Positions 1,908 to 57,218 of a stretch of 64,000 bases of DNA are shown piece by piece. The first letter of the stretch is position 1. Each line of letters begins with the position of its first letter. The DNA is taken from the NCBI GenBank assembly GCA_029262065.1, contig JAJDAC010000022.1:251982-315981 (forward strand). The letters are read 5' to 3'. The notes under the pieces were generated by a model. The model ran no database searches. It saw only the letters and a list, made by a program, of their open reading frames with translations, and had not been told where the DNA came from. The position numbers and the translations under genes are program-made. This DNA comes from Candidatus Krumholzibacteriota bacterium (GTDB lineage Bacteria > Krumholzibacteriota > Krumholzibacteriia > JAJRXK01).

Positions 1908-2942
1908 GTGCGGAAACATGATCTACAAGCGCGCACATTGCGAAGCGCGGGTAGTGTGTTGTTGGCGCTCGTCCTGCTCGCCGATATCACGGGTTGTGAT
2001 GCGCCTCGCCGGAGACCCGTGGTCACTGATCCCGATCCGACCCCGGTGGCAATCGCGAAACCTGCACCAAAGCCTGCACCAAAGCCTACACCAAAGATGG
2101 TCACGCCACCGCCCGCGGTACCGCCCAAGTCCGTCCCCCGCGCGGTGATCGTGGTAGTCAGCGGGACCGATCCCGCGTACGGCAACGTGGCAATCGCCCT
2201 GTCCGACCGTTTTGGCTCAGACGGTGTCACCGTGCTCAACGTGCAGGCGGGACCACTCGATTTGACGCCGGACCTGGTTTCGGACGACGTCGCCGTAATT
2301 GCCGTGGGATTGGGTGCCGCCCTCGCGGTCCGCAAGGCCGGCGTTCGACCCGCGTATTTTTGCCAGGTATTCAACCATCGCCCCTACTCGTTGCTGGATT
2401 CGGGCATGCATGGAATCGACATGATCCCCGAACCGAAACCGGTTCTCCGGCGCTGGCGCCAAACCTTCCCGAACTCGAAAACGATGGGGATCGTTACCGG
2501 CGTGGGACACGAAGACCGAGTGGCCGCGATCGCCGCGACCGCTTCGGATATGGGAATGGAAGTCGTTCACCGAGTCGTAACCTCGGACAAGGAAGCCAAA
2601 CTGGCGTTCGGCAAACTGCTACATTCCGTCGACGGACTCTGGATGCTTCCGGACAACCGCGTGCTTTCACGCGAAGTACTTCAAGATGTTCTGATCCAGG
2701 CCCAAAACCTACGGAAACCAGTTCTCGTGAACACTCCGGCCCTGCTGGCTCTGGGCGCCGCAATGACCGCCTCCGTACATCCGTCGGAAATCGCTTCTCT
2801 GGCGTTCGACCATATTCAAACAACGAACGATACGGCGTCGAGAATGCACACGATTGACAACGTCGAATTCACCATGAATTCCGACGCCGTCGCCTGGATC
2901 CAGGCCGCGACAGACACTCCCGCAACAAAGCCGAGCCGCTGA
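1908..2942 (+). CDS. Periplasmic ABC-type substrate-binding lipoprotein (ABC_sub_bind-like)
   Basis: GTG start. Lipobox LLADITGC followed by a Pro/Lys-rich linker (KPAPKPAPKPTPK). The fold is a class-I periplasmic binding-protein fold (..VIVVVSGTDPAYGNVAIAL.., ..MGIVTGVGHEDRVAAI..). It lies directly upstream, on the same strand, of a GGDEF-EAL sensor. Confidence 0.5.
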   Translation: MRKHDLQARTLRSAGSVLLALVLLADITGCDAPRRRPVVTDPDPTPVAIAKPAPKPAPKPTPKMVTPPPAVPPKSVPRAVIVVVSGTDPAYGNVAIALSDRFGSDGVTVLNVQAGPLDLTPDLVSDDVAVIAVGLGAALAVRKAGVRPAYFCQVFNHRPYSLLDSGMHGIDMIPEPKPVLRRWRQTFPNSKTMGIVTGVGHEDRVAAIAATASDMGMEVVHRVVTSDKEAKLAFGKLLHSVDGLWMLPDNRVLSREVLQDVLIQAQNLRKPVLVNTPALLALGAAMTASVHPSEIASLAFDHIQTTNDTASRMHTIDNVEFTMNSDAVAWIQAATDTPATKPSR

Positions 2943-2947
2943 GGTCG

Positions 2948-5140
2948 TTGATGTCAGGTAGCGAGCCGGCCAAGCCAGACATCGCGTCCCCCTCGGCAAT
3001 CCGCGCCTTCATGGCCCGCATGCCGCAGCCGGGAGTGCGAAGCCTGGTCAGCGATTTCTTCATGGTGCACCTGGTGTTCACCGCGTTCGTTGGGTTGTTG
3101 GCCGTGGGCGCGCTGTGGTGGACGTCGCAGTGGGTTATCGAAGACAACATGAGAAACTGGGCTGTGCAGTGGGTTACCCGACTCGACTCCCTCGGCGCCC
3201 CATTGTACGCCTCGGACCGATCGGCCGAATTCAGCCGGGTCGAGCAGTACGCCCGCCGATTTCCCGAGATCGCATTCGTGCGCTACTACGACGCGGAGGG
3301 CGAGCTTCTGCAGCAGGAGTACAGCAACGGGGGAAACCTGGCCGAACAGGTACCAAACCTCACCGAGGAACAGATCGGGCTACTTCAGGATGGCCTCGAC
3401 GACGAAGATTATGTACTGGACGAACGTTTCGGTGAAGGCCACCGTTTTCGCGCCAGTACCTCTCTGTGGGCCGAGTCCATCGCCTCCGATGGCTTGCTGG
3501 CCTTCGATCTCGAAGGCGATACCAGCCACCCCCGTACTCTTCTGGGATTCGTGGAACTCGGACTCGATTTCGATGAGTACGGCAGCGGACTGACGAGCCG
3601 GGTCCTGAACGTAGGTGTGGCGATCATGGCGGGGGTGTTTCTGCTCGCGGTGGCCGGTCGCTTCGCAGCCAAGCGCGCGCTTTCGCCGCTGAGCCAATTG
3701 CACGAGCCTCTGCATCGACTGGCCAGCGGCGACATGGAGTTCGACCTGCAACAGGGTGGCCACACCGAGATCAAGGCGATCAACACCGCGCTGGTGAGTA
3801 CCATCACCGCACTGCAGGAGCGTGACCGGAAGCTTCGCCGGCTTGCCAACTACGACCCTCTGACCGGCCTCATGAGCCGTCGCGGCTTCGAAGAGCAACT
3901 CGATGCCGATCTGCTCGAAATCGAAAGCGACGACGAACCCGCGGCGCTGTTGTTCATCGATCTGGATCAATTCAAGTACGTCAACGATACGGCCGGGCAC
4001 GCGGCGGGCGATCGCCTGTTGGTACGCGTGGCCGAAACGCTACGATCGTCGCTCCGGGATCAGGACCTCGTCTGTCGCTTCGGCGGCGACGAATTCACCA
4101 TCCTGGCCCGCCACGTCACCCAGACCGACGCCAACACCCTCGCCCAGCAGCTTCTGGACGCGATGGCGGAGATCAATTTCGTGGAGAACGGACACCCATT
4201 CCAGGTGCTCTGCAGCATCGGTGTCACGATCGTGCGCTCGAACAACTATACCGCGACCGAACTGATCGAGCAGGCCGACCTCGCCTGCCACGAGGCCAAG
4301 GCCAACGGAAGGAATCGGCACGAGTTCTACCGGGCAATCGCGGCCGACGAGGAACAGGCCGCCACCGACATGGGCTGGTCCCGTCGCATCGCCGATGCTC
4401 TCGAGAACGACCGGTTCACCCTTCAGTTCCAGCCAATCATCGACATCCAGAGTCGTTCGCCAGTGCTGTACGAAGTGCTCCTACGCATGCGCGCAGGTGA
4501 CAAGATCATCGCGCCCGGTGCGTTCCTGCCCGCCGCCCACCGTTTCGGGTTCATGGTCGACATCGACTACTGGGTGATCCGACAGGCGCTGGAAACCCTG
4601 GCTCAGTTTCGCCAGGGTGGCCACGAAGTGTCGCTGGCGCTGAATCTGTCGGGGGTGGTTTTCGACGACCGGCGCGTAGTCGACTACGTAAGGGAACACC
4701 TGGATAGGAACCAGATTCCAGCCTCGTCGGTGGTATTCGAGATCACCGAACAGATTGCAATTCGGTACGTGGCCGACGCCAACAAGATCATCGGCGAACT
4801 AAAGGAAATGGGCTGCTCGTTCGCGCTCGATGACTTCGGGGCCGGCTTCAGCTCGTTCAACTACCTGAAGCAACTCCCCATGGACTATCTGAAGATCGAC
4901 GGAACGTTCATAGAGAATATTGATCGGGATGAAACCAACCAGGCCATGGTGCGCTCGATGGTTCAGATTGCCAGCGCCGTGAACATGAAGACCATTGCCG
5001 AGTACGTCATGAACGACGCTTCGTTGGCCAAGCTGGAGGAGTTGGGAGTCGACTTCGCACAGGGCTTCCACATTGCCCGCCCCGACAGCGCACTTGCCCT
5101 GGGACCCTTCACGCACGTGGGCGCGGTCGACAACTCCTAG
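2948..5140 (+). CDS. Membrane sensor diguanylate cyclase/phosphodiesterase (TM-periplasmic domain-TM-HAMP-GGDEF-EAL)
   Basis: Two transmembrane segments flank a ~190-aa periplasmic region, followed by a HAMP domain. GGDEF domain with an intact RFGGDEF motif. EAL domain (QFQPIIDI.., VFEITEQ, ALDDFGAGFSSFNYL, LKIDGTFI). Confidence 0.85.
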   Translation: MMSGSEPAKPDIASPSAIRAFMARMPQPGVRSLVSDFFMVHLVFTAFVGLLAVGALWWTSQWVIEDNMRNWAVQWVTRLDSLGAPLYASDRSAEFSRVEQYARRFPEIAFVRYYDAEGELLQQEYSNGGNLAEQVPNLTEEQIGLLQDGLDDEDYVLDERFGEGHRFRASTSLWAESIASDGLLAFDLEGDTSHPRTLLGFVELGLDFDEYGSGLTSRVLNVGVAIMAGVFLLAVAGRFAAKRALSPLSQLHEPLHRLASGDMEFDLQQGGHTEIKAINTALVSTITALQERDRKLRRLANYDPLTGLMSRRGFEEQLDADLLEIESDDEPAALLFIDLDQFKYVNDTAGHAAGDRLLVRVAETLRSSLRDQDLVCRFGGDEFTILARHVTQTDANTLAQQLLDAMAEINFVENGHPFQVLCSIGVTIVRSNNYTATELIEQADLACHEAKANGRNRHEFYRAIAADEEQAATDMGWSRRIADALENDRFTLQFQPIIDIQSRSPVLYEVLLRMRAGDKIIAPGAFLPAAHRFGFMVDIDYWVIRQALETLAQFRQGGHEVSLALNLSGVVFDDRRVVDYVREHLDRNQIPASSVVFEITEQIAIRYVADANKIIGELKEMGCSFALDDFGAGFSSFNYLKQLPMDYLKIDGTFIENIDRDETNQAMVRSMVQIASAVNMKTIAEYVMNDASLAKLEELGVDFAQGFHIARPDSALALGPFTHVGAVDNS

Positions 5141-6243
5141 TTGGACCCGGTTCCGACGGCCATCTTCTCGATGACCTCTACCAAGGCGCGCCCAAAGTAT
5201 TCGTGACCCAGTTGGGTCGCGTGACGGTCGTAGGGAAAGAACATTTCCTGACCCGGCGGCATTCCGTCCAGCGCATTCACCCAGGTAACCCCCAGATCGT
5301 CAAACATCGCGTGTACCCGATCGCGAAACTCCAGCTCGAGTTCACTGGCCCGGTGCTGGTATTCGTTCACCCGGGGCAGATACACAAACCCCACTTTGAC
5401 CCCGCGCTCTTCGGCCAACCGCAGAATCTCCCCGAATACTTCCTCGCGCAGTACCCGGTCGGCAAACTCGATTCGCTCGGAGTCGACGGGAGGCAACGTA
5501 TTTCGTAGGTCCGCCCGCATGGCGTCGAGCGTCCGCGAACCCGCCCAACTCAGCGCATGCGAGGGCGCGTTGATCATGCGTACCGCCACCAGCTGAGCGC
5601 GGGCCTGAATCTTCTCTTTCCAGCGGTACTTGCTGGTCAGAGGCGGCATTGACACCGAATAGCGGGCGTCACCCTGGGCCACGTTGCGCAAACCATTCAA
5701 ACGTAGACAGAACACCACGGCGTCGACGCCCGGGTAGTTGCCGTCCTCTCCGAACAAGGACAGGAACTCGTCGCGGAACAGCGACATCTGACGTGGGGCG
5801 TACTGAGCCGAGGCCCCCAGAGCCACGATCTGGATTCCCGGCAGGCTTCGCTGGGCCACGGAGCTGAAATGCAGATCGACGGGGAGCTGATGGGCTTCCA
5901 GATAGCTGTCACCGATGACCGCGACGCGAACGGGACGTTCGGGATCGGCGCCGAAAGGTCGGGCGTGGTACCCCTCGGCGTTGCGATACACGGGATTGGC
6001 AAACTCGCGCTTGTACCAGGGACGACCCACAATCAGTTCGTGATCGGGCTGGGAAAATCTGGCCCGAATCTGGTTGGGTCCGTTGTAGCCGAAATCGTCG
6101 AAGCCCCGCAACATACCCTCGACGGCCAACAACACGACGAGCAACGACACCACGGCCAGCAGCAACTCCCGAGCGCTGGCCACGATCGCTTCGCGCGCGC
6201 CGCGAGGGCGCGCGGCGTCAAAACTGAAAATAGACGAAGTCAT
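5137..6243 (-). CDS. AlgJ/AlgX/DltD-like SGNH O-acyltransferase partner protein
   Basis: N-terminal transmembrane anchor. VAVIGDSYLEAH (GDS block) and FFPYDRHATQLGH (D-x-H block), as in AlgJ/DltD. Its start overlaps the stop of the upstream MBOAT gene. Confidence 0.55.
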   Translation of the reverse strand: MTSSIFSFDAARPRGAREAIVASARELLLAVVSLLVVLLAVEGMLRGFDDFGYNGPNQIRARFSQPDHELIVGRPWYKREFANPVYRNAEGYHARPFGADPERPVRVAVIGDSYLEAHQLPVDLHFSSVAQRSLPGIQIVALGASAQYAPRQMSLFRDEFLSLFGEDGNYPGVDAVVFCLRLNGLRNVAQGDARYSVSMPPLTSKYRWKEKIQARAQLVAVRMINAPSHALSWAGSRTLDAMRADLRNTLPPVDSERIEFADRVLREEVFGEILRLAEERGVKVGFVYLPRVNEYQHRASELELEFRDRVHAMFDDLGVTWVNALDGMPPGQEMFFPYDRHATQLGHEYFGRALVEVIEKMAVGTGSN

Positions 6244-7719: not shown

Positions 7720-8715
7720 TCAATAGGTGGCCGGGGGTTCGGGCGTGTTGTCGAGGATCGTCTCGATCGATTCCAGAACCTCGGTCGAGAGACGAGGCAA
7801 CAACTCCAGGGCATCCAGGTTCTCTCGTAACTGATCCACCTTCGACGCTCCCAGAATGACCGTACTCACACGGGTTGACCGCAAGCACCAGGCCAACGCC
7901 AACTTGGCCAGCGAAGTATCGAGCTCTTCGGCTACCCGCTGCAGCCGGCCCACTTTTTCCAGATTCTCGCGGCCCTTCTCGTCCAGAACCTGATCGCGCA
8001 GCCATTGGTAGTCGGGCAGGGCCAGACGCGAATCGTCTGGCACTCCCTGATTGTACTTGCCCGTCAGGATACCCGACGCCAGTGGTGACCAAATGGTCGT
8101 ACCCAACCCTATGTCGTCATAGAGTTGAAGATATTCACGCTCTACCCGCTCCCGGTGAAGCATGTTGTACTGCGGTTGCTCCATCGTGGGCGGGTCCACT
8201 CCCAACGAGATTGCGATCCCGTGGGCACGGGCGATCTGGTCGGCACTCCACTCGGATGTCCCCCAGTACAGCACCTTGCCCTGGCGCACCAGGTCGCCCA
8301 TGGCCCGAACGGTTTCCTCGATCGGAGTTTCGTGGTCGGGGCGATGGCAGAAGAAGAGATCGAGATAGTCGACGTCGAGGCGGCGCATTGCCGCGTGGCA
8401 GGCATCATGCACATGCTTGCGGCTGAGGCCACGCTGTGTGGGCAGGTCGCCACCCCAGAACACCTTGCTGGAAACACAGTAGCTGTCCCGCGGGAACCCC
8501 AGCTTCTTCAGCGCCCGCCCCATGATTTCCTCAGAACGGCCCTGGGCGTAGGCTTCGGCGTTGTCGAAGAAGTTCACACCGGCGTCGTACGCCACTTTCA
8601 TGCATTCCACGGCCAACGAATCATCGACCTGATAGTGGAACGTGACCCACGACCCCAACGAGAACGCGCTCACTTTCAGTCCGCTGCGACCCAGCCGCCG
8701 GTACTCCATATCCAC
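7720..8715 (-). CDS. Aldo/keto reductase (Kv-beta/YajO-like)
   Basis: MEYRRLGRSGLKVSAFSLGSW.. N-terminus, GVNFFDNAEAYA, and the CHRPD motif are all typical of the AKR superfamily. Confidence 0.85.
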   Translation of the reverse strand: MDMEYRRLGRSGLKVSAFSLGSWVTFHYQVDDSLAVECMKVAYDAGVNFFDNAEAYAQGRSEEIMGRALKKLGFPRDSYCVSSKVFWGGDLPTQRGLSRKHVHDACHAAMRRLDVDYLDLFFCHRPDHETPIEETVRAMGDLVRQGKVLYWGTSEWSADQIARAHGIAISLGVDPPTMEQPQYNMLHRERVEREYLQLYDDIGLGTTIWSPLASGILTGKYNQGVPDDSRLALPDYQWLRDQVLDEKGRENLEKVGRLQRVAEELDTSLAKLALAWCLRSTRVSTVILGASKVDQLRENLDALELLPRLSTEVLESIETILDNTPEPPATY

Positions 8716-8728
8716 GACCCATCCCCCT

Positions 8729-11116
8729 CTACGCGCGCCGAATCGAACGCGCGACGATCAGTATGAAACCCACGCCGGCCACCATGAACCAGATGAGTGG
8801 AGACGACGCTTGCGGCAACGGAGCCGCCGCCAGCGCGGCCACCGGCTCGTGCCCCGCGCCGATCAACACGAAGGCGGATCTATCGCGATGCGAGTACCCT
8901 TCGGCCGCCATCGCGGCACGAGCCGCACGGAGACTTTCATCACGAGGGGTCCCGGCCCGCAAGGCTCCGTAGAAGTGGGTCATGAACTGCGCCGCGGCGG
9001 CGTCTTCCACGTCCCACAGGCTCGCCACGATCGAACGGGCGCCCGCCACCAGAAACGATCGCGTCAACCCAAACGTACCCTCGCCCAAATAGACATAGCC
9101 GCCGCTGGTGCGGCAGGCGCTCAAGGTGACGAGGTCAGCCTCGAGCTGCAGCTCTTGTACTTCCGACGCCGCCAGCATTCCGTTGGAACCGGCCAACAGC
9201 AAACAGGACGTCTCCGGCGAGAAGTTTTGGACCAACGCGTGGGTGGCAAAATGCAGCACACTGGCATGCCGTACATGATCCTGATCGACCTGTTCCCGAC
9301 TGGCATCTTCGCCCATGTAGATATGCGCACCCTCGATGTCGAGCACGTTCACTTCGTCTCGCGCCCGTGGCAACCGCGAATCGGAGGCTTCTCCACGGAA
9401 GCTTCCCCAGGCCGAGGAACCGGCCGATCCTTCCGACAACACCGGGTCGGCAAAGGCCACGATGGTCTGGGTCGAGCGCGGCCGGGCAATCAGCGCTTCA
9501 AGCGAGCTGGCGCTGGGCAGATACGAAATTGCGAAACGATCACCCAGCGCACCCTGCGGATTGTCGGCCGTGGGAAACGGAAGCACCTCGAAAGGAAATC
9601 CGCTCAATTCGGTAGGCGCAACCAGGAACAGCCGTCGCACCAATGGGGGCAATTCAGCCAGGCCCGGTGGCAGCAGGGCTTCACCCAATCGCCCCAGGAC
9701 AGGCGCGCACGCCGCGTCGTCTGCTCCCGATGACATCAAGTCCAGGGCGGCTTGAGCATCTTTCAGAATTGGCGACAGGAAACTGCTCTCGAATGCTTGG
9801 CTGCCGCTCGGTTGAACGAGGATCGCCAATGTAGGGTTGAGCCGGGGGTCGTTGAACTGCAGCAGCACGGCGTCTTCCTGGCGCAATCGTGAACGCAGTT
9901 TCTCGATCGATATCGAGTCCTGTCCGTGGCCAAGATACTCGCGCAACAGAGGAGCACGCCCTCGTTCCAGACTGGCCCAGGCCGCATCGAGATCGTCGGC
10001 TATGTGATAGCAACGGGCCAACGCGGCGTAGACTTCTCCGCCGCTAGTGAACAGGCCCATCTGACTTTCGGTTTCCCCCAGCTTGGCGCGCTCCGACTCG
10101 TACAAATTGGCGGCATCGGACAACACGACCTGGGCCTCAACATGGCGACCCTGTTCCAGCATGATCGTGCCCAGGCTTGCTTCGTTCTGTAGGATCTGGG
10201 TGGGATCGCCCTGGCGCTCCACGATGGGCCGCAACTCAAGCGTTGCCTCCTCGGCCTCGGCGAACCGATCCAGCTCCAGCAGAAACCGCGCCCGCCCCAT
10301 GAGAGGCATGGGGATGTAGAGCTCGTCGCCCATCTGCCGCCGCAGAGCAATCGCCTCGTCCATGGTTACCAGTGCGGCGGCCACGTCGCTCAGCGCCTGT
10401 TGGGACAGCGCCTTGACGATCAGCCCCGAACTCAGCTGCAGCAGCCAGTTCTCGCGGCGGGCAATGGCAATGGCCGAATCTGCGTAGGCCACGGATTCTT
10501 GAAAGCGTCCCTGCCACTGCAATAGCTCCGACGCGCGGGCGTACGCTGAGCTCATCGATGCGGTGTTGTCCTGACTGCGCGCCAAGGGAATGGCCTTGGC
10601 ATTGGTTTCCACCGCCTCCAATACCCGGCCCAGCTTCATGTACGCCACCGAAAGGTTGCCCCAACTGCGAGCCAACATGAGCGTATCGGCCATGGCCTCG
10701 AAGCGCGGAATGTTTTGCTTGGTGTCCGCAATCATGCGCTCCAGGTCGCCCTGTAGAGCATAGGTAATCGACAGGCTCATCATGAGTTGCGCTTCGCGAC
10801 CCGGCAGCCCGGCCCGTTGCGCGATGGCAATGGCCCGTTCGAGCGTGGCTTGGGCGGCGGCAATGTCCGAACTCCGCGTCTGCAACTCGTTCAGGGAATC
10901 AAGAGCCAACGTAGCCAGGCTATCGTGCCCGGACGCTTCGAATGCGTCCGCCGCGTCGGCCATGCTGGCTCGCAACGCATCCAAATCCACTGCTTCTTGT
11001 TGCGAGCGGCGGTACCTCGACTCCAGCTCGGACCACCGGGTTTCGGCGTCCGAACCTTGGGCCATCGCCGAAGCCGCCAGAAAAAGAAATGAAACCGCGA
11101 GCGCGGCGAGCCGCAT
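8729..11116 (-). CDS. Exported TPR-repeat protein with C-terminal CHAT (caspase-like) protease domain and C-terminal TM anchor
   Basis: The internal Met at 11116 is followed by a signal peptide (MRLAALAVSFLFLAASAMAQG) and preceded by a GAGGGG ribosome-binding site; the upstream extension would overlap the next gene. A long TPR-like helical region follows. The CHAT domain has a His motif (VLHFATHA) and a Cys motif (LVTLSACRTSGG). A terminal hydrophobic helix is present (LIWFMVAGVGFILIV). Confidence 0.65.
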   Translation of the reverse strand: MRLAALAVSFLFLAASAMAQGSDAETRWSELESRYRRSQQEAVDLDALRASMADAADAFEASGHDSLATLALDSLNELQTRSSDIAAAQATLERAIAIAQRAGLPGREAQLMMSLSITYALQGDLERMIADTKQNIPRFEAMADTLMLARSWGNLSVAYMKLGRVLEAVETNAKAIPLARSQDNTASMSSAYARASELLQWQGRFQESVAYADSAIAIARRENWLLQLSSGLIVKALSQQALSDVAAALVTMDEAIALRRQMGDELYIPMPLMGRARFLLELDRFAEAEEATLELRPIVERQGDPTQILQNEASLGTIMLEQGRHVEAQVVLSDAANLYESERAKLGETESQMGLFTSGGEVYAALARCYHIADDLDAAWASLERGRAPLLREYLGHGQDSISIEKLRSRLRQEDAVLLQFNDPRLNPTLAILVQPSGSQAFESSFLSPILKDAQAALDLMSSGADDAACAPVLGRLGEALLPPGLAELPPLVRRLFLVAPTELSGFPFEVLPFPTADNPQGALGDRFAISYLPSASSLEALIARPRSTQTIVAFADPVLSEGSAGSSAWGSFRGEASDSRLPRARDEVNVLDIEGAHIYMGEDASREQVDQDHVRHASVLHFATHALVQNFSPETSCLLLAGSNGMLAASEVQELQLEADLVTLSACRTSGGYVYLGEGTFGLTRSFLVAGARSIVASLWDVEDAAAAQFMTHFYGALRAGTPRDESLRAARAAMAAEGYSHRDRSAFVLIGAGHEPVAALAAAPLPQASSPLIWFMVAGVGFILIVARSIRRA

Positions 11117-11198: not shown

Positions 11199-12836
11199 TC
11201 AGCGGCGGCTGTCGTCGGTTTCGAGCTGCTCTCGGGCCAGGCGAGCCTCGAGTCCAGCCTGCTGATGATCGGGATACGCCCGCAGGACACGATTCGCCTC
11301 CGAAAGCGCCTCGCGTGGCCGTCCCTGGAGCCGGTAGACGGTCGCGAGACGTACGGAAATGGACAGATTTTGCGGTGAGTAGCGCGCCGCATCGCGATAA
11401 CACTGCTCGGCATCGACCAGACGTCCCTGCCCGACCAGCAGATCTCCCAGCTTCCAGACCGCCCGCCAGTCGGCGGGAAGCAGCTCCAACGCCCGCCGGA
11501 ACGCTGCCTCGGCCGTCGAAGCGTCGCCGCGGCTGGCCGCGGCATCCCCTTCACGAACTCGCGCCAGCGCGGCCACCACATCCTTTGGATCGGTCAGCAC
11601 CGTGAGCTCGTCGTCGTCGCCCGAGATGTACCCCAACGACGCCAGCATGTTGCGGGTCTGAGCGTCCATCCGGCCTTTCATGTCGGGTCGTACGCCGGTG
11701 AACCACTCCAAGGGATGTTGCTCACGCAGAGTTTGTTCCATGGCCAACGCTTGCTCGGACCCGGCAAGGTTCGCAGCTTCACGGGAATCCGCCGACAGGT
11801 CATATAGCTCGGCGCGTGGCGCGGCTATGTATTTCCAGTTGTCCAGACGAATGCTCGCCAGGGGCGAAGCTCCGTGGTTGTGGAAGGGAACCATGGTTTC
11901 CGAAAGCAACGGGCGACCCGAACGCGGCTTTGCCGCCAGCAACGACACCGACGGCGTCGGGGCCGGAGCGTCCAGCCCACCGAACTCACGCAGGGTGGCC
12001 GCCACATCGATCGTCGATACGGCCGCGGAAACTCTCAAGTTCGCTACCGTCGCATTGGGATCCACCACGATCAACGGAACGTGGATGGTGGACTGATACA
12101 GGAGCAAACCATGTTGCTCCTCGCCGTGCTCGCCCAAACCCTCGCCATGGTCTGATGTAACGATGATCGCCAGGTCCGAGGAGTCGAGACCATCCAGTAG
12201 CACCCTGATCTGGGAATCGACGTAGGAAATCTCCTCATCGTACCGGTCGCGATCGACCGGCCCGGCATGATCGACGTAGGGATGGTGCGGATCGAAGTAG
12301 TGGACCCAGAGAAACCGGGGCCGACCAGCCATGGAGCGCCACGCTTTCAGGGCCGCCGCGGTCGATGTGCCGGCGTCTCGTTCGTGCGCGTCTGCGGATA
12401 GGCCGTCTTCGTCGTAGATCTCGAATGCGCGGGCCAGGCCGTAGCGGGAGCCCAGCACCGTGGAACTCACGACCGCCGCGGTGGCGTAGCCAGATTCGCC
12501 AAGTTCACGCGGAACCAGGGAAACCGACTCGGTGGCCGGCATTCCATTGCTGCGGCTGGCATGCTCATGCGGATACAAGCCCGTCAGCATCGAGCTATGC
12601 GACGGCAGGGTCAGCGGGCTCGTACTCATGGCGTTTTCGTACAGGATGCCGACCGAAGCCAACGAGTCGAGGGTGGCGGTTGCCGCCCGCGAATAGCCGT
12701 ATGCGCCCAGGCGATCAGCCCGCAGCGTGTCGATGGTTATGAGCACAATGTCCGGCTGGTTTCGTGAACCACACGAAACCGATGACAACGCACCCAGCCC
12801 CAGAAGGAGGCACCAGAGTTGACGGATCTTTGGCAA
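11199..12836 (-). CDS. Sulfatase-like hydrolase/transferase (alkaline phosphatase superfamily) fused to C-terminal TPR repeats; lipoprotein
   Basis: Lipobox ALSSVSC. Classic sulfatase N-terminus (DIVLITIDTLRADRLGAYGY). At the nucleophile position the sequence is STSPLTLPSH (Thr/Ser), not the formylglycine CxPxR motif, so it is probably not a true sulfatase. The C-terminal ~110 aa are TPR-like. Confidence 0.65.
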   Translation of the reverse strand: MPKIRQLWCLLLGLGALSSVSCGSRNQPDIVLITIDTLRADRLGAYGYSRAATATLDSLASVGILYENAMSTSPLTLPSHSSMLTGLYPHEHASRSNGMPATESVSLVPRELGESGYATAAVVSSTVLGSRYGLARAFEIYDEDGLSADAHERDAGTSTAAALKAWRSMAGRPRFLWVHYFDPHHPYVDHAGPVDRDRYDEEISYVDSQIRVLLDGLDSSDLAIIVTSDHGEGLGEHGEEQHGLLLYQSTIHVPLIVVDPNATVANLRVSAAVSTIDVAATLREFGGLDAPAPTPSVSLLAAKPRSGRPLLSETMVPFHNHGASPLASIRLDNWKYIAAPRAELYDLSADSREAANLAGSEQALAMEQTLREQHPLEWFTGVRPDMKGRMDAQTRNMLASLGYISGDDDELTVLTDPKDVVAALARVREGDAAASRGDASTAEAAFRRALELLPADWRAVWKLGDLLVGQGRLVDAEQCYRDAARYSPQNLSISVRLATVYRLQGRPREALSEANRVLRAYPDHQQAGLEARLAREQLETDDSRR

Positions 12837-14384: not shown

Positions 14385-14942
14385 ATGGCCCAGGAAATTC
14401 GGGATCCGGAGCAGATCGCGGTACTGGCGTCTGGCATCCGGCAAAACATCGTGGATTACGCGGAAGCCCTCGGGCCCTGCTCGGTGGCCGATCTGGCCCG
14501 GGCGCTCGGGCGTGCCGCCGACTCCCTCTACTATCACGTGCGAATCCTATTGCGGGCTGAGCTGTTGGTGGAACGCGGCACGCGAGGCGAAGGAAGAGAA
14601 GCCGAGGCCTTGGTTGATGTGGCGGCCCGCCCGCTGGCAATTCGCTACGACGACGAAAACGACAACAATCTCGACGCGGTCCGTGACCTTTCGGCGGCCA
14701 TGCTGCGCCTGGCCCAGCGCGATTTCAGCCGCGGGCTGGCAGCCCCCGACGTGCGATTGCACGGACCACGCCGCCAGGTCTGGACGGGTCGGCACGTGGG
14801 CCGGTTGACCAGAGACGAACTGGCCGCCGTGAACGCCCACGTGGAAGCGATTGGTCGAATCTTTCTAAGCAGCTACCAACGACGCGATGGGCATCTTCAG
14901 ACCTTCACGTTTTCCAGCGCCCCTGTTGCCCCCAATGATTAG
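14385..14942 (+). CDS. Winged-helix (ArsR/MarR-like) transcriptional regulator
   Basis: 185 aa. An HTH-like segment (PCSVADLARALGRAADSLYYHVRILLRAELLV) lies near the N-terminus. Divergent from kbl; upstream of the aspartic protease. Confidence 0.45.
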   Translation: MAQEIRDPEQIAVLASGIRQNIVDYAEALGPCSVADLARALGRAADSLYYHVRILLRAELLVERGTRGEGREAEALVDVAARPLAIRYDDENDNNLDAVRDLSAAMLRLAQRDFSRGLAAPDVRLHGPRRQVWTGRHVGRLTRDELAAVNAHVEAIGRIFLSSYQRRDGHLQTFTFSSAPVAPND

Positions 14943-14964
14943 AAACAAGTCCAGGAGGAAGACG

Positions 14965-16470
14965 ATGGTCAGAATCTTCAGCTTGATGGTGACGCTGATC
15001 GCCATGTCGAGCGCGCCCGCGCTGGCTTCGGACCTGTACGAAAGAGTACGGGAGGCCAGTGGTTCACCTACGTCGTCCGCCGGCATTCACCTGACCGGCG
15101 ACGCATTCTTCGTGGGCGAGGAGTGCGATTTTGAATTGCAGCTATCGGGCACCGGGCTCTATCGACGCGAATTTCGCGGACCGATTTCGCTACTGACCGT
15201 CGACGATGGAAGTCCGGCATGGGAACGCGACTGGTCGAACACGGTTCGCACCCTGGCGATGGCCGACCTCGAAAAACCGCGTTTCTTCACGTGGTTGACC
15301 AGCGGCTATTGGCTGCGAGAACCCACGGCGTTTGACGTGGTGGAGGGCGAGGCGCCCAATACGCTCGAACTGACGCTGCGCGGAGGCATCGAGGGAGGCA
15401 CACTTTGGATCGACCCCCAGACCCTTCTGCCGGCCCGACTGGTTCAGATTGAAGACGAACAGGAGACGATCACCACGTTCGCGAAGTACGAGCGGCTGGG
15501 CGAACTCCTGGTGCCCATGCACGTGGAAACCACCAATCCCGTGGGTGAACTCACCTGGGTGAAGGTCTCAAATGCTGGCCCGCTCGATGCCTCGGAGTTC
15601 GGCGAACCTTGGTCTCGGCCTACTTCCACCCCCGCTCGTTTCGAGCCGGGCCTCGACCTGGTAACCCAGGTCGCACCCACGGGACACCTGCTGGTCCAGG
15701 TCCGCGTCAACGGCCACGAACCAGGTTGGTTCATTTTCGACACGGGAGCCGGCGGACACTGCATATCCTCAACGGTTCCCTACATCGATGAACTCCAGAA
15801 GCACGGACAACAGACAGTGGGCGGCGTGGGTGGAAGCGTCACCGCCCCGTACCGCGTGGGAAGTGAACTACAGATCGGGCCCGTCACCATGGATGAACCC
15901 TGGTTCATCGAACTGGACCTGGCGTTTCTGGAGGGACCCATGAACGCGCGCATCGACGGCATCGTGGGCTTCGACCTGCTTTCGCGCTGCGTGGCCGACA
16001 TCGATCTACCGAACGGAGTGGTCGAGCTATTCGATCCGCAAACCTATGAACTCTCGGGAGCCAAGTGGGAGAAGTTGGTGCTGGCTTCCCGCCACCCCAG
16101 TGTGCGAGCGCAACTGGAGGGCGGTCGGTCTGGCCAATTCAAGATCGACACCGGTGCCGCCGGAAGCACGGTGACATTCCACGCCCCGTACGTGGAATCA
16201 TCGGGCCTGCTGTTGTTTCGCGATACCGACTCCAGCACCAGCGGTGGTGTGGCGGGAACCGTCGAAACCCGAAGCGGAGAAATCTCATCGTTCGAACTGG
16301 GTGGTCATCGATTCGAAGACGTGTTCGCGGAGTTCGCGCTGGAGCACAAAGGTGCGTTCGCGAACAAATACACGGCCGGAAACATCGGCGGCCAATTGCT
16401 CAAGCCGTTCCGGCTGGTGCTGAACTACCCGCGCGAAACCCTCGCGTTCGTTCCACGCGGTCCGCAGTAG
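14965..16470 (+). CDS. Secreted pseudo-dimeric retropepsin-like (clan AA) aspartic protease with two DTGA active-site motifs
   Basis: AGGAGG ribosome-binding site 6 nt upstream of the ATG at 14965. Signal peptide MVRIFSLMVTLIAMSSAPALA. Two tandem Asp_protease_2-like halves (VNGHEPGWFIFDTGAGGHCIS.. and GQFKIDTGAAGSTVTF..). The ~230-aa N-terminal domain is of unknown type. Confidence 0.6.
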   Translation: MVRIFSLMVTLIAMSSAPALASDLYERVREASGSPTSSAGIHLTGDAFFVGEECDFELQLSGTGLYRREFRGPISLLTVDDGSPAWERDWSNTVRTLAMADLEKPRFFTWLTSGYWLREPTAFDVVEGEAPNTLELTLRGGIEGGTLWIDPQTLLPARLVQIEDEQETITTFAKYERLGELLVPMHVETTNPVGELTWVKVSNAGPLDASEFGEPWSRPTSTPARFEPGLDLVTQVAPTGHLLVQVRVNGHEPGWFIFDTGAGGHCISSTVPYIDELQKHGQQTVGGVGGSVTAPYRVGSELQIGPVTMDEPWFIELDLAFLEGPMNARIDGIVGFDLLSRCVADIDLPNGVVELFDPQTYELSGAKWEKLVLASRHPSVRAQLEGGRSGQFKIDTGAAGSTVTFHAPYVESSGLLLFRDTDSSTSGGVAGTVETRSGEISSFELGGHRFEDVFAEFALEHKGAFANKYTAGNIGGQLLKPFRLVLNYPRETLAFVPRGPQ

Positions 16471-44197: not shown

Positions 44198-44202
44198 TGT
44201 TC

Positions 44203-54689: not shown

Positions 54690-54745
54690 CGGTACCGAAA
54701 ACGAACGCATGTTATTGAATTAAAACAACTTAATGGATCTTTCCT
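54690..54745 (-). promoter_or_regulatory. AT-rich putative promoter of the 11-gene polysaccharide operon, with ~170-nt leader
   Basis: AT-rich island (ttattgaattaaaacaacttaatgg) upstream of the first minus-strand gene. All genes from 54530 down to 43538 are co-directional with gaps of 30 bp or less. Confidence 0.3.
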
Positions 54746-57218
54746 AGCGCCGGCCCATGAGAATCCAGGGAGCCCACTTGTCCGGAGCGGACCATCGCGG
54801 GTCGTGCCGCAGAAAGAGCTTCGCCTTGCGCAGTGCCTGGGCGTACTCGCGCTGCGCAAATTCTGGCGCCAGCATCGCCCGCCTCAGCACCTCCTCGGCG
54901 GCATCATCGACCGCTTCGGACACGGGCAGCACCACGCGCTGGGTTCCCGCCGAGAGAAAGGCATGGGCGACCTCCAGGCCCTGGACGCCGGCCTGGGGCC
55001 ACGATAACCAGGCCAACGCGGCCTCCTGGCTCAACTGGGTCAACTCGAACGCACTCAGGTGGCCGTTGTCCTCTTCGTGTCCTGATCCCGGCGACAGTTT
55101 CAACGCGGGCCCCTGGGCGCCCTGGGACGGGCTCACGCGAGTTGCCACGTGAAGTAGCTCGACCCTCCCCAGCAGCTGCCGCAGTTCTCCCTCGGTGGCG
55201 TTCCTGCCCGTGAGTTCGGCCACGCGCACGCCCCGCAGCGACGTGGTGAACACGTGGCTCTGCCTCTGACTGGACGGCCAGGTGTTTTCTTCCCCAGGGA
55301 GCGCGGGCGCGCTCAGGGTAACCATTACACCGGATGGGGGCTCCACCTCGGACTGGGCGAGAATTGCCAGCATGGCCACGGACGGGGCGTACCGAACCGT
55401 TGGCCCAGAGTCCAACCAATACACCGGATCAGGAGCGTTGACCGAACCCGTGATCAGGGTCTCGAAGGGAAATCCCACCAGTACGGAGTGAGGCACCACG
55501 ATCACGTGCGCCTTCTCGGCCAGCGTGGGCCGCACTGTTTCGGGCACCAGAATTTCCCAGAGGGCGTGTCCGCGCGCGAGCGGTTGATCCTCGAGGGTGG
55601 GCGCCTCCAGCCAGCCGCGCAACCCGTCACGCCCCACTCCGAGCGAGCGAGCGAGCTTGCCCGTGCGGTCGACAGCTTCGAGCTCTACGGCTTCGAGTGG
55701 ACGATCCGCGGTGGCGACGAACACGAAGCTACGATCACGACCCACGTGGTACTGCAGAAGGGATTCGTCGTCCCACAGGTGCAGAGATGGATTCAGGGAC
55801 ACTAGCCTGGGGTGTTTCCAGAGCACGGTTTCCTCGAAGCGCCGCACGTCGGCTCGCGCAAGCCGCCAGGCCTGCCACGTCGCGTCGATCGAACCTGTAT
55901 CGATTTGCCGAATGTCGTCGCGAACCGCGAGTGCACGCGCGTTTCGCTCACGGTTGATCGCCTCGGCGTGGCGCGGGTTGCGTGCAGGCAATTTCAGCGG
56001 TCGCAGCCAGGCCTGAAAGCACTCCGCCACGAACATTGCCTCGGTCGGAGTGTCCGCATCGACATTCCAGGCCACCAGGTCATCGGCCAATGCCGCCACG
56101 TGATGGGGCCACTCGAGTTCACTCGCGCGACGGGGACACCCGGCCGCGGGTATTTCTTCGCGCATGGCCCACGCAGCCCGAGCGTCGTCCAGCCCCTGCT
56201 CACGTTTTCCTTGCGCGTCGAAGCGCCGAGCGCGGGTCATCAGCGCCACCGCCAGGTTCGTCGCGAAGCGGGGGTGCGACGCGAAGATCTCTATTTCAGT
56301 ATCGAGTCCCGCCGGGCCCAATTGCGACCGTGGACCAGCGAGTCGGGCCAGAACCAGACGGAGCCGAGCACAATCAGGATCCCGGAACCCCAGACTGGAT
56401 TCGAACCGCGCCAGTATCGGTCGCAGCGAATCGACCGCGGCGACGGCCAGGCCAGCCCGCAGGGCCGCCACGGCCCGATCGGCGTGGGCGCGTACCAGCC
56501 AACGCAACGGGACACCGCCATTGCCCGCGGCCAGCAATGCCTCACTCCACCAACGGTGAGCATCCCGCCACTGTCCGCCACTGGCCTCCAGCATCGCCCT
56601 CTCGTGGTTCCACTCGAACCGGGAGGTCAGGTCGTCGGGGTCCAGAACGATCGATTCGAGTACGGAACGCGCCGGGTCAAGCCGGCCTTCCGCGCGCAGC
56701 GCGCGGGCCACACCCAGACGGGCGCGTGAACGAGCCAAGTCTGACGAGTCCATGGAAACGATCGATTCGTACGCTTCGCGCGCCGGGACGTACAGGCCGC
56801 GAAACACGAGGAGTTGGGCCAGCTGATCGAGCCAGTTCGCGAGTTCGGTAGTCTGATCGACCGACCGCGACGGTTGCGACTGCACGATCCCCACGGCCAC
56901 CTCGTACGCCGCGGAGGCATCCTCGAGCCGACGCTGTGCGTCGGTCAGCTGAGCCAGGCGAGCCCAGGCGGCAGCCACTTCGAACGCACCCTCGCCGAAC
57001 TGCTCGCGCGCGACTTCGATCGCCATCTGGGCCTGGTCCAGCCCGGAGATCCGTTGACGGGGAGTGGACGGCGATGCTTCCGAGGGGCCCGAACGCAGGC
57101 TGACCGGGCCGGCGGTAGGAGCCGGTTGCGCCGGCGGCGCTGGCTCACGTGCGCATGCCGCCAGAGCCACCACCAGGAGCACGAGACAGCCGCAAATGTA
57201 GGAGCACCGAATATTCAT
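54744..57218 (-). CDS. Exported TPR-repeat protein with C-terminal CHAT-like domain lacking the catalytic His/Cys (predicted pseudo-protease)
   Basis: Internal start with lipobox (MNIRCSYICGCLVLLVVALAACA). Long TPR-like N-terminal region. The C-terminal domain aligns with the CHAT domain of the 8729-11116 protein, but LHFATHA becomes LHVATRV (His to Arg) and LSACRT becomes LSWPQA (Cys to Pro). Confidence 0.5.
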   Translation of the reverse strand: MNIRCSYICGCLVLLVVALAACAREPAPPAQPAPTAGPVSLRSGPSEASPSTPRQRISGLDQAQMAIEVAREQFGEGAFEVAAAWARLAQLTDAQRRLEDASAAYEVAVGIVQSQPSRSVDQTTELANWLDQLAQLLVFRGLYVPAREAYESIVSMDSSDLARSRARLGVARALRAEGRLDPARSVLESIVLDPDDLTSRFEWNHERAMLEASGGQWRDAHRWWSEALLAAGNGGVPLRWLVRAHADRAVAALRAGLAVAAVDSLRPILARFESSLGFRDPDCARLRLVLARLAGPRSQLGPAGLDTEIEIFASHPRFATNLAVALMTRARRFDAQGKREQGLDDARAAWAMREEIPAAGCPRRASELEWPHHVAALADDLVAWNVDADTPTEAMFVAECFQAWLRPLKLPARNPRHAEAINRERNARALAVRDDIRQIDTGSIDATWQAWRLARADVRRFEETVLWKHPRLVSLNPSLHLWDDESLLQYHVGRDRSFVFVATADRPLEAVELEAVDRTGKLARSLGVGRDGLRGWLEAPTLEDQPLARGHALWEILVPETVRPTLAEKAHVIVVPHSVLVGFPFETLITGSVNAPDPVYWLDSGPTVRYAPSVAMLAILAQSEVEPPSGVMVTLSAPALPGEENTWPSSQRQSHVFTTSLRGVRVAELTGRNATEGELRQLLGRVELLHVATRVSPSQGAQGPALKLSPGSGHEEDNGHLSAFELTQLSQEAALAWLSWPQAGVQGLEVAHAFLSAGTQRVVLPVSEAVDDAAEEVLRRAMLAPEFAQREYAQALRKAKLFLRHDPRWSAPDKWAPWILMGRR

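What the first reader, a model, noticed from the sequence alone, without database searches (positions are those of the whole stretch)
8729..11116. Exported, membrane-tethered TPR-CHAT caspase-like protease, with a catalytically dead paralog at 54744-57218
The protein at 8729-11116 has a signal peptide, a ~500-aa TPR-like region, a CHAT domain with a His motif (LHFATHA) and a Cys motif (LSACRTSGG), and a C-terminal transmembrane helix. That combination implies a periplasmic or surface caspase-like protease using TPRs as a substrate or partner platform. CHAT proteins are best known from cytoplasmic contexts (HetF, Craspase/Csx29-type effectors, other defence-associated proteases), so an exported, membrane-anchored version paired with a paralog that looks catalytically dead (His to Arg, Cys to Pro; see the separate finding) suggests a protease/pseudoprotease regulatory pair. 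It sits immediately beside a TPR-fused sulfatase-like enzyme.
Basis: partly seen in the sequence, partly recalled or inferred. Interest (0 to 1): 0.6.

Follow-up and report, generated by a model that had tools for sequence, protein, structure and literature searches.

The report
Membrane-anchored periplasmic TPR-CHAT protease, plus dead copy
The window encodes an exported, membrane-anchored caspase-like (CHAT) protease with an intact active site, whose relatives elsewhere almost always sit beside an ECF sigma/anti-sigma signalling pair. It also encodes a distant, catalytically dead lipoprotein copy, and nothing links the two as a working pair.

Summary
P1 (8729-11116, minus strand, 795 aa) has a Sec-type signal peptide, about 350 aa of TPR-like helical repeats, and a CHAT domain (Pfam E=3.5e-54) with an intact His626/Cys668 dyad. 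It ends in a transmembrane helix followed by an Arg-rich tail.

P2 (54744-57218, minus strand, 824 aa) is a predicted lipoprotein with the same fold. It has Arg694 and Pro741 in place of the dyad, plus a 7-residue deletion after the Cys position.

- **Exported CHAT proteins are not unusual.** About 60% of roughly 230 full-length homologues have signal-like N-termini. A periplasmic TPR-CHAT is already solved in the Myxococcus anti-sigma factor DdvA, which is P1's best structural and sequence match in the PDB.
- **P1 and P2 are not a pair by any evidence.** They are 25% identical, lie in different subfamilies and are 44 kb apart. P2 has no close relative among 1.84 billion representative proteins.

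The new lead is that P1 sits in a clade (Candidatus Eisenbacteria and relatives) in which every informative locus places the CHAT gene beside an ECF sigma factor and a single-pass anti-sigma factor. This looks like a "split DdvA". The window has neither gene, so P1 is an orphaned member. Its most likely role is regulated periplasmic proteolysis in envelope signalling.

The parts
8729..11116 (-). P1: exported, C-terminally anchored TPR-CHAT protein, 795 aa
   Evidence: ORF and translation. Pfam CHAT E=3.5e-54. AlphaFold model with mean pLDDT 91.1 and pTM 0.88. Best global PDB match is DdvA 8RW5/8ROT at TM 0.61.
11060..11116 (-). P1 signal peptide, residues 1-19 (MRLAALAVSFLFLAASAMA), with the predicted cut after A-M-A
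   Evidence: Hydropathy and the A-x-A rule. There is no alternative in-frame start in the 84-nt intergenic region. The N-terminal hydrophobic segment is conserved in homologues. No dedicated predictor was run.
9932..10984 (-). P1 TPR-like helical repeat region, residues about 45-395 (about 17 helices of about 17 aa)
   Evidence: Secondary structure of the AlphaFold model. Pfam TPR_12 E=6.6e-13 and TPR_MalT E=6.2e-8.
8789..9700 (-). P1 CHAT domain, Pfam envelope residues 473-776; in the model the beta-rich part starts near residue 415
9239..9241 (-). P1 catalytic His626 codon (CAC), motif VLHFATHAL
   Evidence: Invariant column in 52 sequences and in 261 of 265 homologues. Aligns with DdvA H862. 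Codon checked.
9113..9115 (-). P1 catalytic Cys668 codon (TGC), motif LVTLSACRTSGG
   Evidence: Invariant column. Aligns with DdvA C907. Codon checked.
8732..8797 (-). P1 C-terminal TM helix L774-A789 (LIWFMVAGVGFILIVA) plus the basic tail RSIRRA
   Evidence: Kyte-Doolittle about 2.7. Helix 773-794 in the model. Similar TM-plus-Arg tails occur in orthologues L003-L006 and in distant relatives. No NCBIfam sorting-signal model matched at E<=0.1.
54744..57218 (-). P2: lipoprotein-type TPR-pseudoCHAT, 824 aa
   Evidence: ORF. Pfam CHAT E=1.1e-19. AlphaFold model with pLDDT 84.2 and pTM 0.83. Top Foldseek hits are Csx29, DdvA and separase.
57153..57218 (-). P2 signal peptide with lipobox L-A-A-C22; an AGGTGG Shine-Dalgarno-like box lies 8-13 nt upstream of the ATG
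   Evidence: Residues 29-56 after the Cys are predicted disordered, consistent with a lipoprotein tether.
55137..55139 (-). P2 Arg694 at the catalytic His position (LLHVATRVS)
54996..54998 (-). P2 Pro741 at the catalytic Cys position (LSWPQAG), followed by a 7-residue deletion relative to active homologues
11199..12836 (-). Upstream neighbour of P1: sulfatase-like alkaline-phosphatase-superfamily domain fused to C-terminal TPRs. It lies 82 bp from P1 on the same strand.
   Evidence: Pfam Sulfatase E=3.7e-34 plus TPR_16, TPR_2 and TPR_19. The adjacency is not conserved in orthologous loci.
7720..8715 (-). Downstream neighbour of P1: aldo/keto reductase, 13 bp after the P1 stop, possibly co-transcribed
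   Evidence: Pfam Aldo_ket_red E=3.8e-72. No convincing terminator lies between the genes.

Best explanation
P1 is most likely an active cysteine protease that faces the periplasm.

Shown or directly inferred from sequence:
- It is exported by a cleavable Sec signal peptide.
- A single C-terminal transmembrane helix holds it on the inner membrane, with the Arg-rich tail in the cytoplasm.
- A TPR superhelix and a caspase-fold CHAT domain with an intact His626-Cys668 dyad are displayed in the periplasm.
- It belongs to a clade of such proteins whose genes, in other genomes, lie directly beside an ECF sigma factor and a single-pass (often zinc-finger type) anti-sigma factor.
- Its closest solved relative is the periplasmic TPR-CHAT sensor module that is fused to the anti-sigma factor DdvA.

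Inferred mechanism:
- The TPR platform binds a periplasmic protein signal or substrate.
- The CHAT domain then performs a regulated cleavage in envelope signalling. In the orthologues this is most plausibly the site-1 cut of the partner anti-sigma factor, so they would act as a 'split DdvA'.
- In this genome the sigma/anti-sigma genes are not nearby. P1 therefore acts either on a pair encoded elsewhere or on another periplasmic substrate.

P2 is a separate matter. It is a lipoprotein that keeps the TPR-CHAT fold but has lost both catalytic residues. It probably works as a non-catalytic binding protein and is not demonstrably connected to P1.
For: - **Anatomy.**
- **Dyad.** The His and Cys columns are invariant in 52 homologues and retained in 261 of 265. 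A profile of the CHAT domain has DdvA (8ROT_B) as its best PDB match at E=2e-11, and its His/Cys columns fall on H862/C907. The DdvA paper names these as the catalytic dyad.
- **Fold.** DdvA 8RW5/8ROT is the best global match, with TM 0.60-0.61 and rmsd 5.6-6.0 A over about 745 columns. Csx29 and separase score lower.
- **Clade and context.** P1 nests with L002-L006 and L021. All five of these with usable flanks carry the sigma and anti-sigma genes next to the CHAT gene. The sigma factor reaches the NCBIfam sigma70-ECF cut-off in L003 (48.9 against 42.9). The distant anti-sigma partners carry the H-x3-C-x2-C motif.
- **Wider distribution.** The same sigma/anti-sigma-type gene pair flanks distant TM-bearing CHAT genes in L026, L027, L029, L035, L010 and L018. 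L033 has an adjacent sigma factor only.
- **Correlation with the anchor.** In the 31-ORF table, 8 of the 12 CHAT ORFs with a clear C-terminal TM helix have a sigma and/or anti-sigma hit in the locus. Only 3 of the 19 without one do.
- **Rosetta-stone logic.** DdvA fuses the anti-sigma and TPR-CHAT parts into one protein.
- **P2.**
Against: - The window contains no ECF sigma or anti-sigma gene. HMMs built from the partners found nothing at E<=0.1, and Pfam annotation of most of the larger ORFs showed none. The functional link is therefore borrowed from relatives that are only 34-41% identical.
- No protease activity has been shown for any member of this clade. Even for DdvA, CHAT-mediated cleavage is a hypothesis and its dyad is in a resting geometry.
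- Signal peptide and TM helix were called by rule, not by a trained predictor.
- The tree is a simple neighbour-joining tree without support values.
- Two clade members (L002, L021) lack the C-terminal helix.
Confidence: 0.55

Rival explanations
1. One reading: P1 and P2 form a protease/pseudoprotease regulatory pair, with the dead lipoprotein copy regulating, scaffolding or decoying the active membrane-tethered one.
For: Both are predicted to face the periplasm and share the TPR-CHAT fold. P2 has lost both catalytic residues yet remains an intact ORF that folds confidently. Pseudo-enzymes regulating active paralogues are known in the caspase superfamily (general knowledge).
Against: The genes are 44 kb apart in unrelated gene neighbourhoods. 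The CHAT domains are only 25% identical and belong to different subfamilies. P2 has no orthologue anywhere (best other hit 111.5 bits in 1.84 billion representatives), so it does not co-occur with P1 orthologues. None of the orthologous P1 loci contains a second CHAT gene.
Confidence: 0.06
2. P1 works with its immediate neighbours. The exported TPR-fused sulfatase-like enzyme, P1 and the aldo/keto reductase would form an operon for cell-envelope or polysaccharide remodelling, with P1 processing or maturing envelope proteins such as the neighbouring enzyme.
For: The genes are on the same strand with 82-bp and 13-bp gaps and no convincing terminator. With its longer TTG start, the sulfatase-like protein also has a signal-like N-terminus. 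MBOAT and other envelope genes follow downstream.
Against: None of the orthologous or more distant loci repeats this neighbourhood. The clade's conserved neighbours are sigma and anti-sigma genes instead.
Confidence: 0.15
3. P1 is a non-proteolytic periplasmic sensor or scaffold. The TPR-CHAT module only binds a ligand and the dyad is conserved for structural or historical reasons.
For: In the solved DdvA structure the dyad is in a resting geometry and the active site appears incomplete. No CHAT protein of this exported type has demonstrated activity.
Against: His and Cys are retained in 261 of 265 homologues across very divergent sequences. That degree of conservation argues for selection on catalysis. 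Where catalysis is lost (P2), the sequence sits on a long branch.
Confidence: 0.15
4. The C-terminal helix plus Arg tail is a sorting signal of the exosortase, rhombosortase or sortase type. It would be removed so that P1 is released or attached to the cell surface, rather than serving as a permanent membrane anchor.
For: The layout of a short Pro/Ser-rich segment, a hydrophobic helix and a basic cluster resembles such signals (general knowledge).
Against: No signature motif is conserved ahead of the helix among 14 homologues. No NCBIfam sorting-domain model matched at E<=0.1. No exosortase-like or sortase-like enzyme appears among the window ORFs scanned against Pfam. The secreted proteins of this window instead carry FlgD_ig / T9SS-type C-terminal domains.
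Confidence: 0.06

Closest known systems
[quoted passage not shown]
   Same: Both have a periplasm-facing TPR superhelix plus a CHAT domain with a His-Cys dyad. DdvA is P1's best sequence-profile match in the PDB (E=2e-11) and its best global structural match (TM 0.61). P1's orthologues are linked to an ECF sigma/anti-sigma pair.
   Different: DdvA is one polypeptide: an N-terminal cytoplasmic zinc anti-sigma domain, a TM helix, then the periplasmic TPR-CHAT. P1 has a cleavable signal peptide, no anti-sigma domain, and its TM helix at the C-terminus. In orthologues the anti-sigma factor is a separate small single-pass protein. In this window there is no sigma or anti-sigma gene at all. Identity in the Foldseek structural alignment is only 17%. 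DdvA-like fusions are reported only in Myxococcota and one Comamonas, whereas P1's clade is in Candidatus Eisenbacteria, Gemmatimonadota and unclassified MAGs.
Csx29 / TPR-CHAT of type III-E CRISPR 'Craspase' (for example PDB 8EEY, 8D9F)
   Same: Same TPR-CHAT fold and dyad (Foldseek E=2e-16; profile E about 1e-5). Craspase also feeds into an ECF-type sigma factor pathway by cleaving Csx30 (PMC10028731).
   Different: Csx29 is cytoplasmic and docks on Cas7-11/gRAMP, activated by target RNA. P1 is exported, no cas gene appears among the window ORFs scanned against Pfam, and P1 has no PADLOC hit. The global TM score is only about 0.36.
Separase (MEROPS C50; for example PDB 5U1T, 9HMA)
   Same: A helical-repeat region followed by a caspase-fold domain with a His-Cys dyad. 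There is a weak Pfam Peptidase_C50 hit around the Cys motif (E=0.032).
   Different: Separase is a eukaryotic, nuclear/cytoplasmic, much larger protein regulated by securin and phosphorylation.
ECF54-type sigma factors, which have CHAT, subtilase or carboxypeptidase genes in their neighbourhood (review PMC8999054)
   Same: A published precedent for conserved genomic association between ECF sigma factors and CHAT-domain proteins, with proteolytic control proposed.
   Different: ECF54 is described as lacking an anti-sigma factor. The modules seen here include a clear single-pass anti-sigma gene. Whether the sigma factors found here fall into any named ECF group was not testable with these tools.

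Membership tests
CHAT domain (Pfam PF12770; caspase-haemoglobinase fold) | Sequence match to the family model above the curated cut-off | tested here: met
   P1 scores 184.6 bits and P2 71.4 bits, against a cut-off of 24.
CHAT domain (Pfam PF12770; caspase-haemoglobinase fold) | Catalytic His-Cys dyad at the conserved positions (P1) | tested here: met
   His626 and Cys668 lie in invariant columns that align with DdvA H862/C907.
CHAT domain (Pfam PF12770; caspase-haemoglobinase fold) | Catalytic His-Cys dyad at the conserved positions (P2) | tested here: not met
   P2 has Arg694 and Pro741, plus a 7-residue deletion after the Cys column. It keeps the fold but not the catalytic residues.
CHAT domain (Pfam PF12770; caspase-haemoglobinase fold) | TPR-CHAT fold resembling solved members | tested here: met
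   High-confidence models (pLDDT 91 and 84). For both, the top Foldseek PDB hits are Csx29, DdvA and separase.
CHAT domain (Pfam PF12770; caspase-haemoglobinase fold) | Peptidase activity | not testable with these tools
   This needs biochemistry.
DdvA-like TPR-CHAT transmembrane anti-sigma factors | N-terminal cytoplasmic anti-sigma (zinc-finger) domain followed by a TM helix | tested here: not met
   P1 begins with a signal peptide. No zf-HC2 or anti-sigma model matched. Its only TM helix is C-terminal.
DdvA-like TPR-CHAT transmembrane anti-sigma factors | Periplasmic TPR-CHAT module | tested here: met
   Inferred from the signal peptide, the C-terminal TM helix and the positive-inside tail. 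Structural match TM 0.61.
DdvA-like TPR-CHAT transmembrane anti-sigma factors | Cognate ECF sigma gene adjacent | tested here: not met
   None in the window. It is present next to the orthologues L002-L004, L006 and L021.
Type III-E CRISPR Craspase protease Csx29 | Encoded with Cas7-11/gRAMP and Csx30/Csx31/RpoE; cytoplasmic | tested here: not met
   No cas genes appear among the window ORFs scanned against Pfam. No PADLOC hit. P1 has an export signal.
C-terminal protein-sorting signals (PEP-CTERM, GlyGly-CTERM, LPXTG and similar) | Conserved signature motif just before the TM helix and basic tail, with a cognate sorting enzyme | tested here: not met
   No NCBIfam sorting-domain hit at E<=0.1. 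No conserved motif across 14 TM-bearing homologues. No sorting enzyme appears among the window ORFs scanned against Pfam.
Bacterial lipoproteins (P2) | Signal peptide ending in a lipobox [LVI][ASTVI][GAS]C | tested here: met
   L-A-A-C at residues 19-22 after a hydrophobic core. Lipidation itself is not testable here.
Formylglycine-dependent sulfatases (neighbour gene 11199-12836) | C/S-x-P-x-R motif that is converted to the formylglycine nucleophile | tested here: not met
   The corresponding position reads T-L-P-S-H (12597-12611), although Pfam Sulfatase matches at E=3.7e-34. The motif alignment was made by eye from knowledge of the family.

The most novel reading that the evidence does not exclude
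Proteins of P1's type (signal peptide, TPR, CHAT, C-terminal anchor) are the trans-acting, signal-sensing site-1 proteases of a widespread but undescribed three-gene ECF sigma / anti-sigma / CHAT module, a 'split DdvA'. The module occurs in Candidatus Eisenbacteria, Gemmatimonadota, Acidobacteriota and Bacteroidota. The copy in this window is an orphan that has been rewired to another periplasmic substrate or acts on a distant sigma/anti-sigma pair. P2 would be a newly arisen pseudo-protease receptor.
Probability: 0.3. Interest if true: 0.6.

Novelty: new variant of a known kind. Interest (0 to 1): 0.4.

Why it matters
Caspase-like CHAT proteases are mostly discussed as cytoplasmic effectors, such as separase, HetF and Craspase. 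The one studied periplasmic example, DdvA, is proposed but not shown to cut itself to release a sigma factor. In the family that P1 belongs to, the protease and the anti-sigma factor are separate genes. That arrangement would make the proposed CHAT-driven site-1 cleavage directly testable in trans, by mutating the protease and following the anti-sigma factor. It would also extend this signalling logic well beyond Myxococcota.

For this window itself the value is more modest. It provides a well-defined, probably active exported CHAT protease without its usual partners, and a clear natural example of a CHAT domain that lost catalysis but kept its fold.

Tried and rejected
- **Single-sequence PDB search.** phmmer of P1 and P2 returned only TPR proteins and no CHAT structures. 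A domain profile was needed.
- **12-sequence alignment for a genome scan.** It was too divergent to yield search patterns. The two-sequence alignment worked.
- **Metagenome contig scan.** It gave one short, uninformative locus.
- **Cluster look-up of P1 and P2.** It returned no names or organism, so the taxon of the window is only inferred from the sources of the best homologues.
- **ECF reclassification paper.** It does not mention CHAT in its main text and its supplements are not held. Assignment of the partner sigma factors to a named ECF group was therefore not possible.
- **PADLOC scan.** No defence-system match for P1, P2 or the neighbours.
- **Search for sigma/anti-sigma genes in the window.** tblastn and two HMMs found nothing.
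- **Contexts of P2's nearest active relatives.** L030 and L031 share no conserved neighbourhood.
- **Recent duplication of P1 as the origin of P2.** Considered and rejected on 25% identity and different clades.
- **Upstream start for P1.** An earlier start that would bury the signal peptide was rejected, because the intergenic 84 nt has no in-frame start codon.
Full report
**1. What is in the sequence**

Both genes are on the minus strand.

P1 (8729-11116, 795 aa) begins MRLAALAVSFLFLAASAMA|QG. It has one basic residue, a 15-residue hydrophobic core and A-x-A before the predicted cut.

The long ORF listed mechanically (to 11581) would overlap the upstream gene. The 84 nt between that gene's stop (11199) and ATG 11116 hold no in-frame ATG, GTG or TTG, and a GAGGGG box lies 8-13 nt upstream of the ATG. 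An independent gene call on a metagenomic copy of the locus uses the same start. The closest full-length homologue and the orthologues from other genomes also start with hydrophobic signal-like segments. The signal peptide is therefore not an artefact of start-codon choice. No trained signal-peptide predictor was available.

Pfam gives CHAT (PF12770) at E=3.5e-54 over residues 473-776, plus TPR_12 and TPR_MalT in the N-terminal half.

The AlphaFold model, built on a 52-sequence alignment, is confident (mean pLDDT 91.1, pTM 0.88). It shows about 17 regular helices from residues about 45 to 395, then a mixed alpha/beta domain, then a terminal helix at 773-794. The repeat region is thus about 350 aa, not about 500.

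The last 22 residues are LIWFMVAGVGFILIVA followed by RSIRRA. After signal-peptide cleavage this gives a type I topology. The TPR-CHAT body is outside and the basic tail inside, in line with the positive-inside rule (inference).

**2. The catalytic dyad**

- His626 (VLHFATHAL) and Cys668 (LSACRTSGG) are invariant in an alignment of 52 diverse homologues.
- They are present in 261 of 265 homologues collected in two searches.
- A profile of the CHAT domain has the anti-sigma factor DdvA (8ROT_B) as its best PDB match at E=2e-11. Its His and Cys columns fall on DdvA H862 and C907. The DdvA paper names these as the catalytic dyad. Csx29 and separase follow with weaker scores.

**3. The second protein**

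P2 (54744-57218, 824 aa) begins MNIRCSYICGCLVLLVVALAAC. This is a hydrophobic core ending in an L-A-A-C lipobox, with an AGGTGG box upstream of the ATG. The upstream TTG start would lie inside a terminator-like hairpin that ends the preceding gene.

Pfam CHAT matches at E=1.1e-19. At the dyad columns P2 has Arg694 (LLHVATR) and Pro741 (LSWPQ), and it lacks 7 residues just after the Cys position. No Cys lies anywhere in its CHAT domain.

The model is still confident (pLDDT 84.2, pTM 0.83), and its top PDB matches are Csx29, DdvA and separase. P2 is therefore a folded pseudo-enzyme, not a decaying gene.

**4. Are P1 and P2 a pair?**

- They are 25% identical over the CHAT domain, pairwise E=0.001.
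- In a neighbour-joining tree of CHAT domains, P2 sits on a long branch beside two lipoprotein-type, TM-less proteins (L030, L031). P1 sits in a different clade.
- P2's nearest relatives (27-30% identity) retain His and Cys and have unrelated gene neighbourhoods.
- An exhaustive HMMER search of 1.84 billion representative proteins found nothing closer than 111.5 bits.

The genes are 44 kb apart:
- P1 lies between a sulfatase-like TPR protein and an aldo/keto reductase.
- P2 lies between three PL14-like exported proteins and a glycan-synthesis cluster with a Wzm/Wzt-type ABC transporter.

Nothing supports a functional pair, although it cannot be formally excluded.

**5. Is export unusual for CHAT?**

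No. By a crude hydropathy screen, 139 of 233 full-length homologues have a signal-like N-terminus, and 18 of those have a lipobox (sequences). About 14 of the first 112 hits also end in a hydrophobic helix followed by Arg/Lys residues.

In the literature held here, DdvA of Myxococcus xanthus is a transmembrane anti-sigma factor whose roughly 900-residue periplasmic part is a TPR-CHAT module (PMC6061681; PMC11506125). DdvA is P1's best global structural match (8RW5/8ROT: TM 0.60-0.61, rmsd 5.6-6.0 A, 17% identity). Csx29 and separase align less well overall.

**6. What the relatives say about function**

A scan of one genome per species found P1's closest relatives (34-41% identity) in Candidatus Eisenbacteria MAGs, an unclassified MAG with a 3.6-Mb contig, and a Gemmatimonadota MAG. 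This suggests, but does not prove, that the window comes from that part of the tree. The FlgD_ig / T9SS-type C-terminal domains on several window proteins fit this.

*The close clade.* In L003 and L006 the CHAT gene is followed directly by a 180-aa protein and a roughly 200-aa protein. In L004 the same two genes precede it. L002 and L021 have them too.
- The 180-aa protein is an ECF sigma factor. NCBIfam sigma70-ECF scores 48.9 bits against a cut-off of 42.9 in L003, and 41.3 bits in L006.
- The second protein has an anti-sigma-like N-terminus, one TM helix and a conserved periplasmic domain of about 90 aa. It gives weak hits to an anti-sigmaE model and to zf-HC2.
- The contig carrying the closest full-length homologue, P0002, has genes of 180 and 216 aa in the same position.

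*Distant relatives.* The same sigma/anti-sigma-type gene pair flanks distant TM-bearing CHAT genes in L026, L027, L029 and L035, and also in L010 and L018. In L027 and L029 the partner carries the H-x3-C-x2-C motif of zinc anti-sigma domains. A Bacteroidota genome (L033) has an adjacent sigma factor.

*Counts.* In the 31-ORF table, 8 of the 12 CHAT ORFs with a clear C-terminal TM helix have a sigma and/or anti-sigma hit in the locus. Only 3 of the 19 without one do. These counts are small and the sampling is not systematic.

*Position of P1.* In the tree, P1 nests inside the clade formed by L002-L006 and L021, and every informative member of it has the pair.

*The window.* It has no homologue of either partner by tblastn or by two HMMs at E<=0.1. 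No sigma factor appears among the window ORFs scanned against Pfam.

**7. Best explanation**

*Shown.* P1 has the sequence features of an exported, C-terminally anchored TPR-CHAT protein with an intact dyad. Its clade is genomically coupled to ECF sigma/anti-sigma pairs. In DdvA the same two functions are fused into one protein.

*Inferred.* The orthologues act as signal-sensing periplasmic proteases on their anti-sigma partner. This would be a split version of the mechanism proposed, but not yet demonstrated, for DdvA. P1, having lost the adjacent partners, either serves a pair elsewhere in the genome or cleaves another periplasmic substrate. P2 is most simply a non-catalytic TPR-CHAT lipoprotein with a binding role.

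*Confidence.* I put about 0.9 on the anatomy. I put about 0.55 on the overall statement as worded, which commits only to regulated periplasmic proteolysis in envelope signalling.

**8. Rivals**

- The pair model has no support (section 4).
- A role with the neighbouring sulfatase-like enzyme and reductase is possible. The gaps are short (82 and 13 bp) and no clear terminator separates the genes. However, the neighbourhood is unique to this genome.
- A purely sensory, non-proteolytic role fits the resting DdvA structure but not the near-universal retention of the dyad.
- A cleaved sorting signal is unlikely. There is no conserved motif, no matching NCBIfam model and no sorting enzyme in the window.
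- A defence role like that of DdvA remains open. There are no PADLOC hits and no defence genes nearby.

**9. Comparison with what is known, and novelty**

P1 is a clear member of the CHAT family. It works most like the periplasmic module of DdvA, but it is not a DdvA-type anti-sigma factor: it has no anti-sigma domain, its TM helix is at the opposite end, and there is no adjacent sigma factor. It is not a Craspase component.

The published ECF54 context with CHAT genes is described as lacking anti-sigma factors. The DdvA authors found fused DdvA-like proteins only in Myxococcota and one Comamonas. Full-text searches returned no paper describing the separate sigma / anti-sigma / anchored-CHAT module. 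The library is incomplete, so it may be catalogued in ECF resources I could not read.

I rate the finding a new variant of a known kind. Its interest is moderate and comes mainly from the lead in related genomes, not from this locus.

Noticed in passing
L003:6881-10716; L006:7650-11388; L004:about 2100-5778; L026:4245-8799; L027:4842-8859; L029:4699-8703; L035:338-4761: A recurrent gene module of ECF sigma factor, single-pass anti-sigma factor and signal-peptide/TPR/CHAT/C-terminal-TM protein. It occurs in Candidatus Eisenbacteria, Gemmatimonadota, Acidobacteriota-type and other MAGs. It resembles the DdvA anti-sigma/TPR-CHAT fusion split into two genes.
   Followed up: yes
L026:5456-5998 and L035:1566-2108: In two distant versions of the module, a fourth gene of 180 aa with no Pfam hit lies between the anti-sigma gene and the CHAT gene.
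   Followed up: no
window 12597-12611 (within gene 11199-12836, minus strand): The sulfatase-like neighbour reads T-L-P-S-H where sulfatases carry the C/S-x-P-x-R formylglycine motif. It is probably a Thr-type alkaline-phosphatase-superfamily hydrolase or transferase and not a true sulfatase. The longer TTG start at 12836 gives a signal-like N-terminus that the automatic gene call (515 aa) removes.
   Followed up: partly
window 57357-59180, 59413-61389, 62428-63996 (minus strand): Three paralogous exported proteins with a PL14-like polysaccharide-lyase C-terminal domain and PKD-like domains lie directly upstream of P2. One of them also has a dockerin-like repeat.
   Followed up: partly
window about 57289-57327 (minus strand): A strong terminator-like hairpin (AAGAGCCCGACCC-TTTTT-GGGGTCGGGCTCTT followed by a T-run) separates the PL14-like gene from P2. 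P2 therefore probably has its own promoter.
   Followed up: no
window 43538-54602 (minus strand): A glycan or O-antigen-like biosynthesis cluster lies downstream of P2. It includes two GT2 glycosyltransferases, a Wzm/Wzt-type ABC transporter pair, an epimerase/dehydratase, a C-methyltransferase, a class III aminotransferase, a DUF4910 protein and a PIG-L deacetylase.
   Followed up: partly
window 31618-32634, 32762-34840, 39836-43327: Several large exported proteins end in FlgD_ig / T9SS-type C-terminal domains. This suggests a type IX-like secretion route in this organism and fits an FCB-group or Eisenbacteria-like origin.
   Followed up: no
proteins P0073 and P0110 (homologues, not in the window): Two CHAT homologues have Tyr at the catalytic His position (HLATYGVLN) but keep the Cys. 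This is another natural variant of the dyad.
   Followed up: no
window 2948-5140; 18214-19290; 19331-22012; 14887-16470: Other envelope and signalling genes are present in the window: a HAMP-GGDEF-EAL protein, a CsgG-like protein fused to TPRs, a DUF4953 Met-zincin, and a protein with a retropepsin-like aspartyl protease domain.
   Followed up: no
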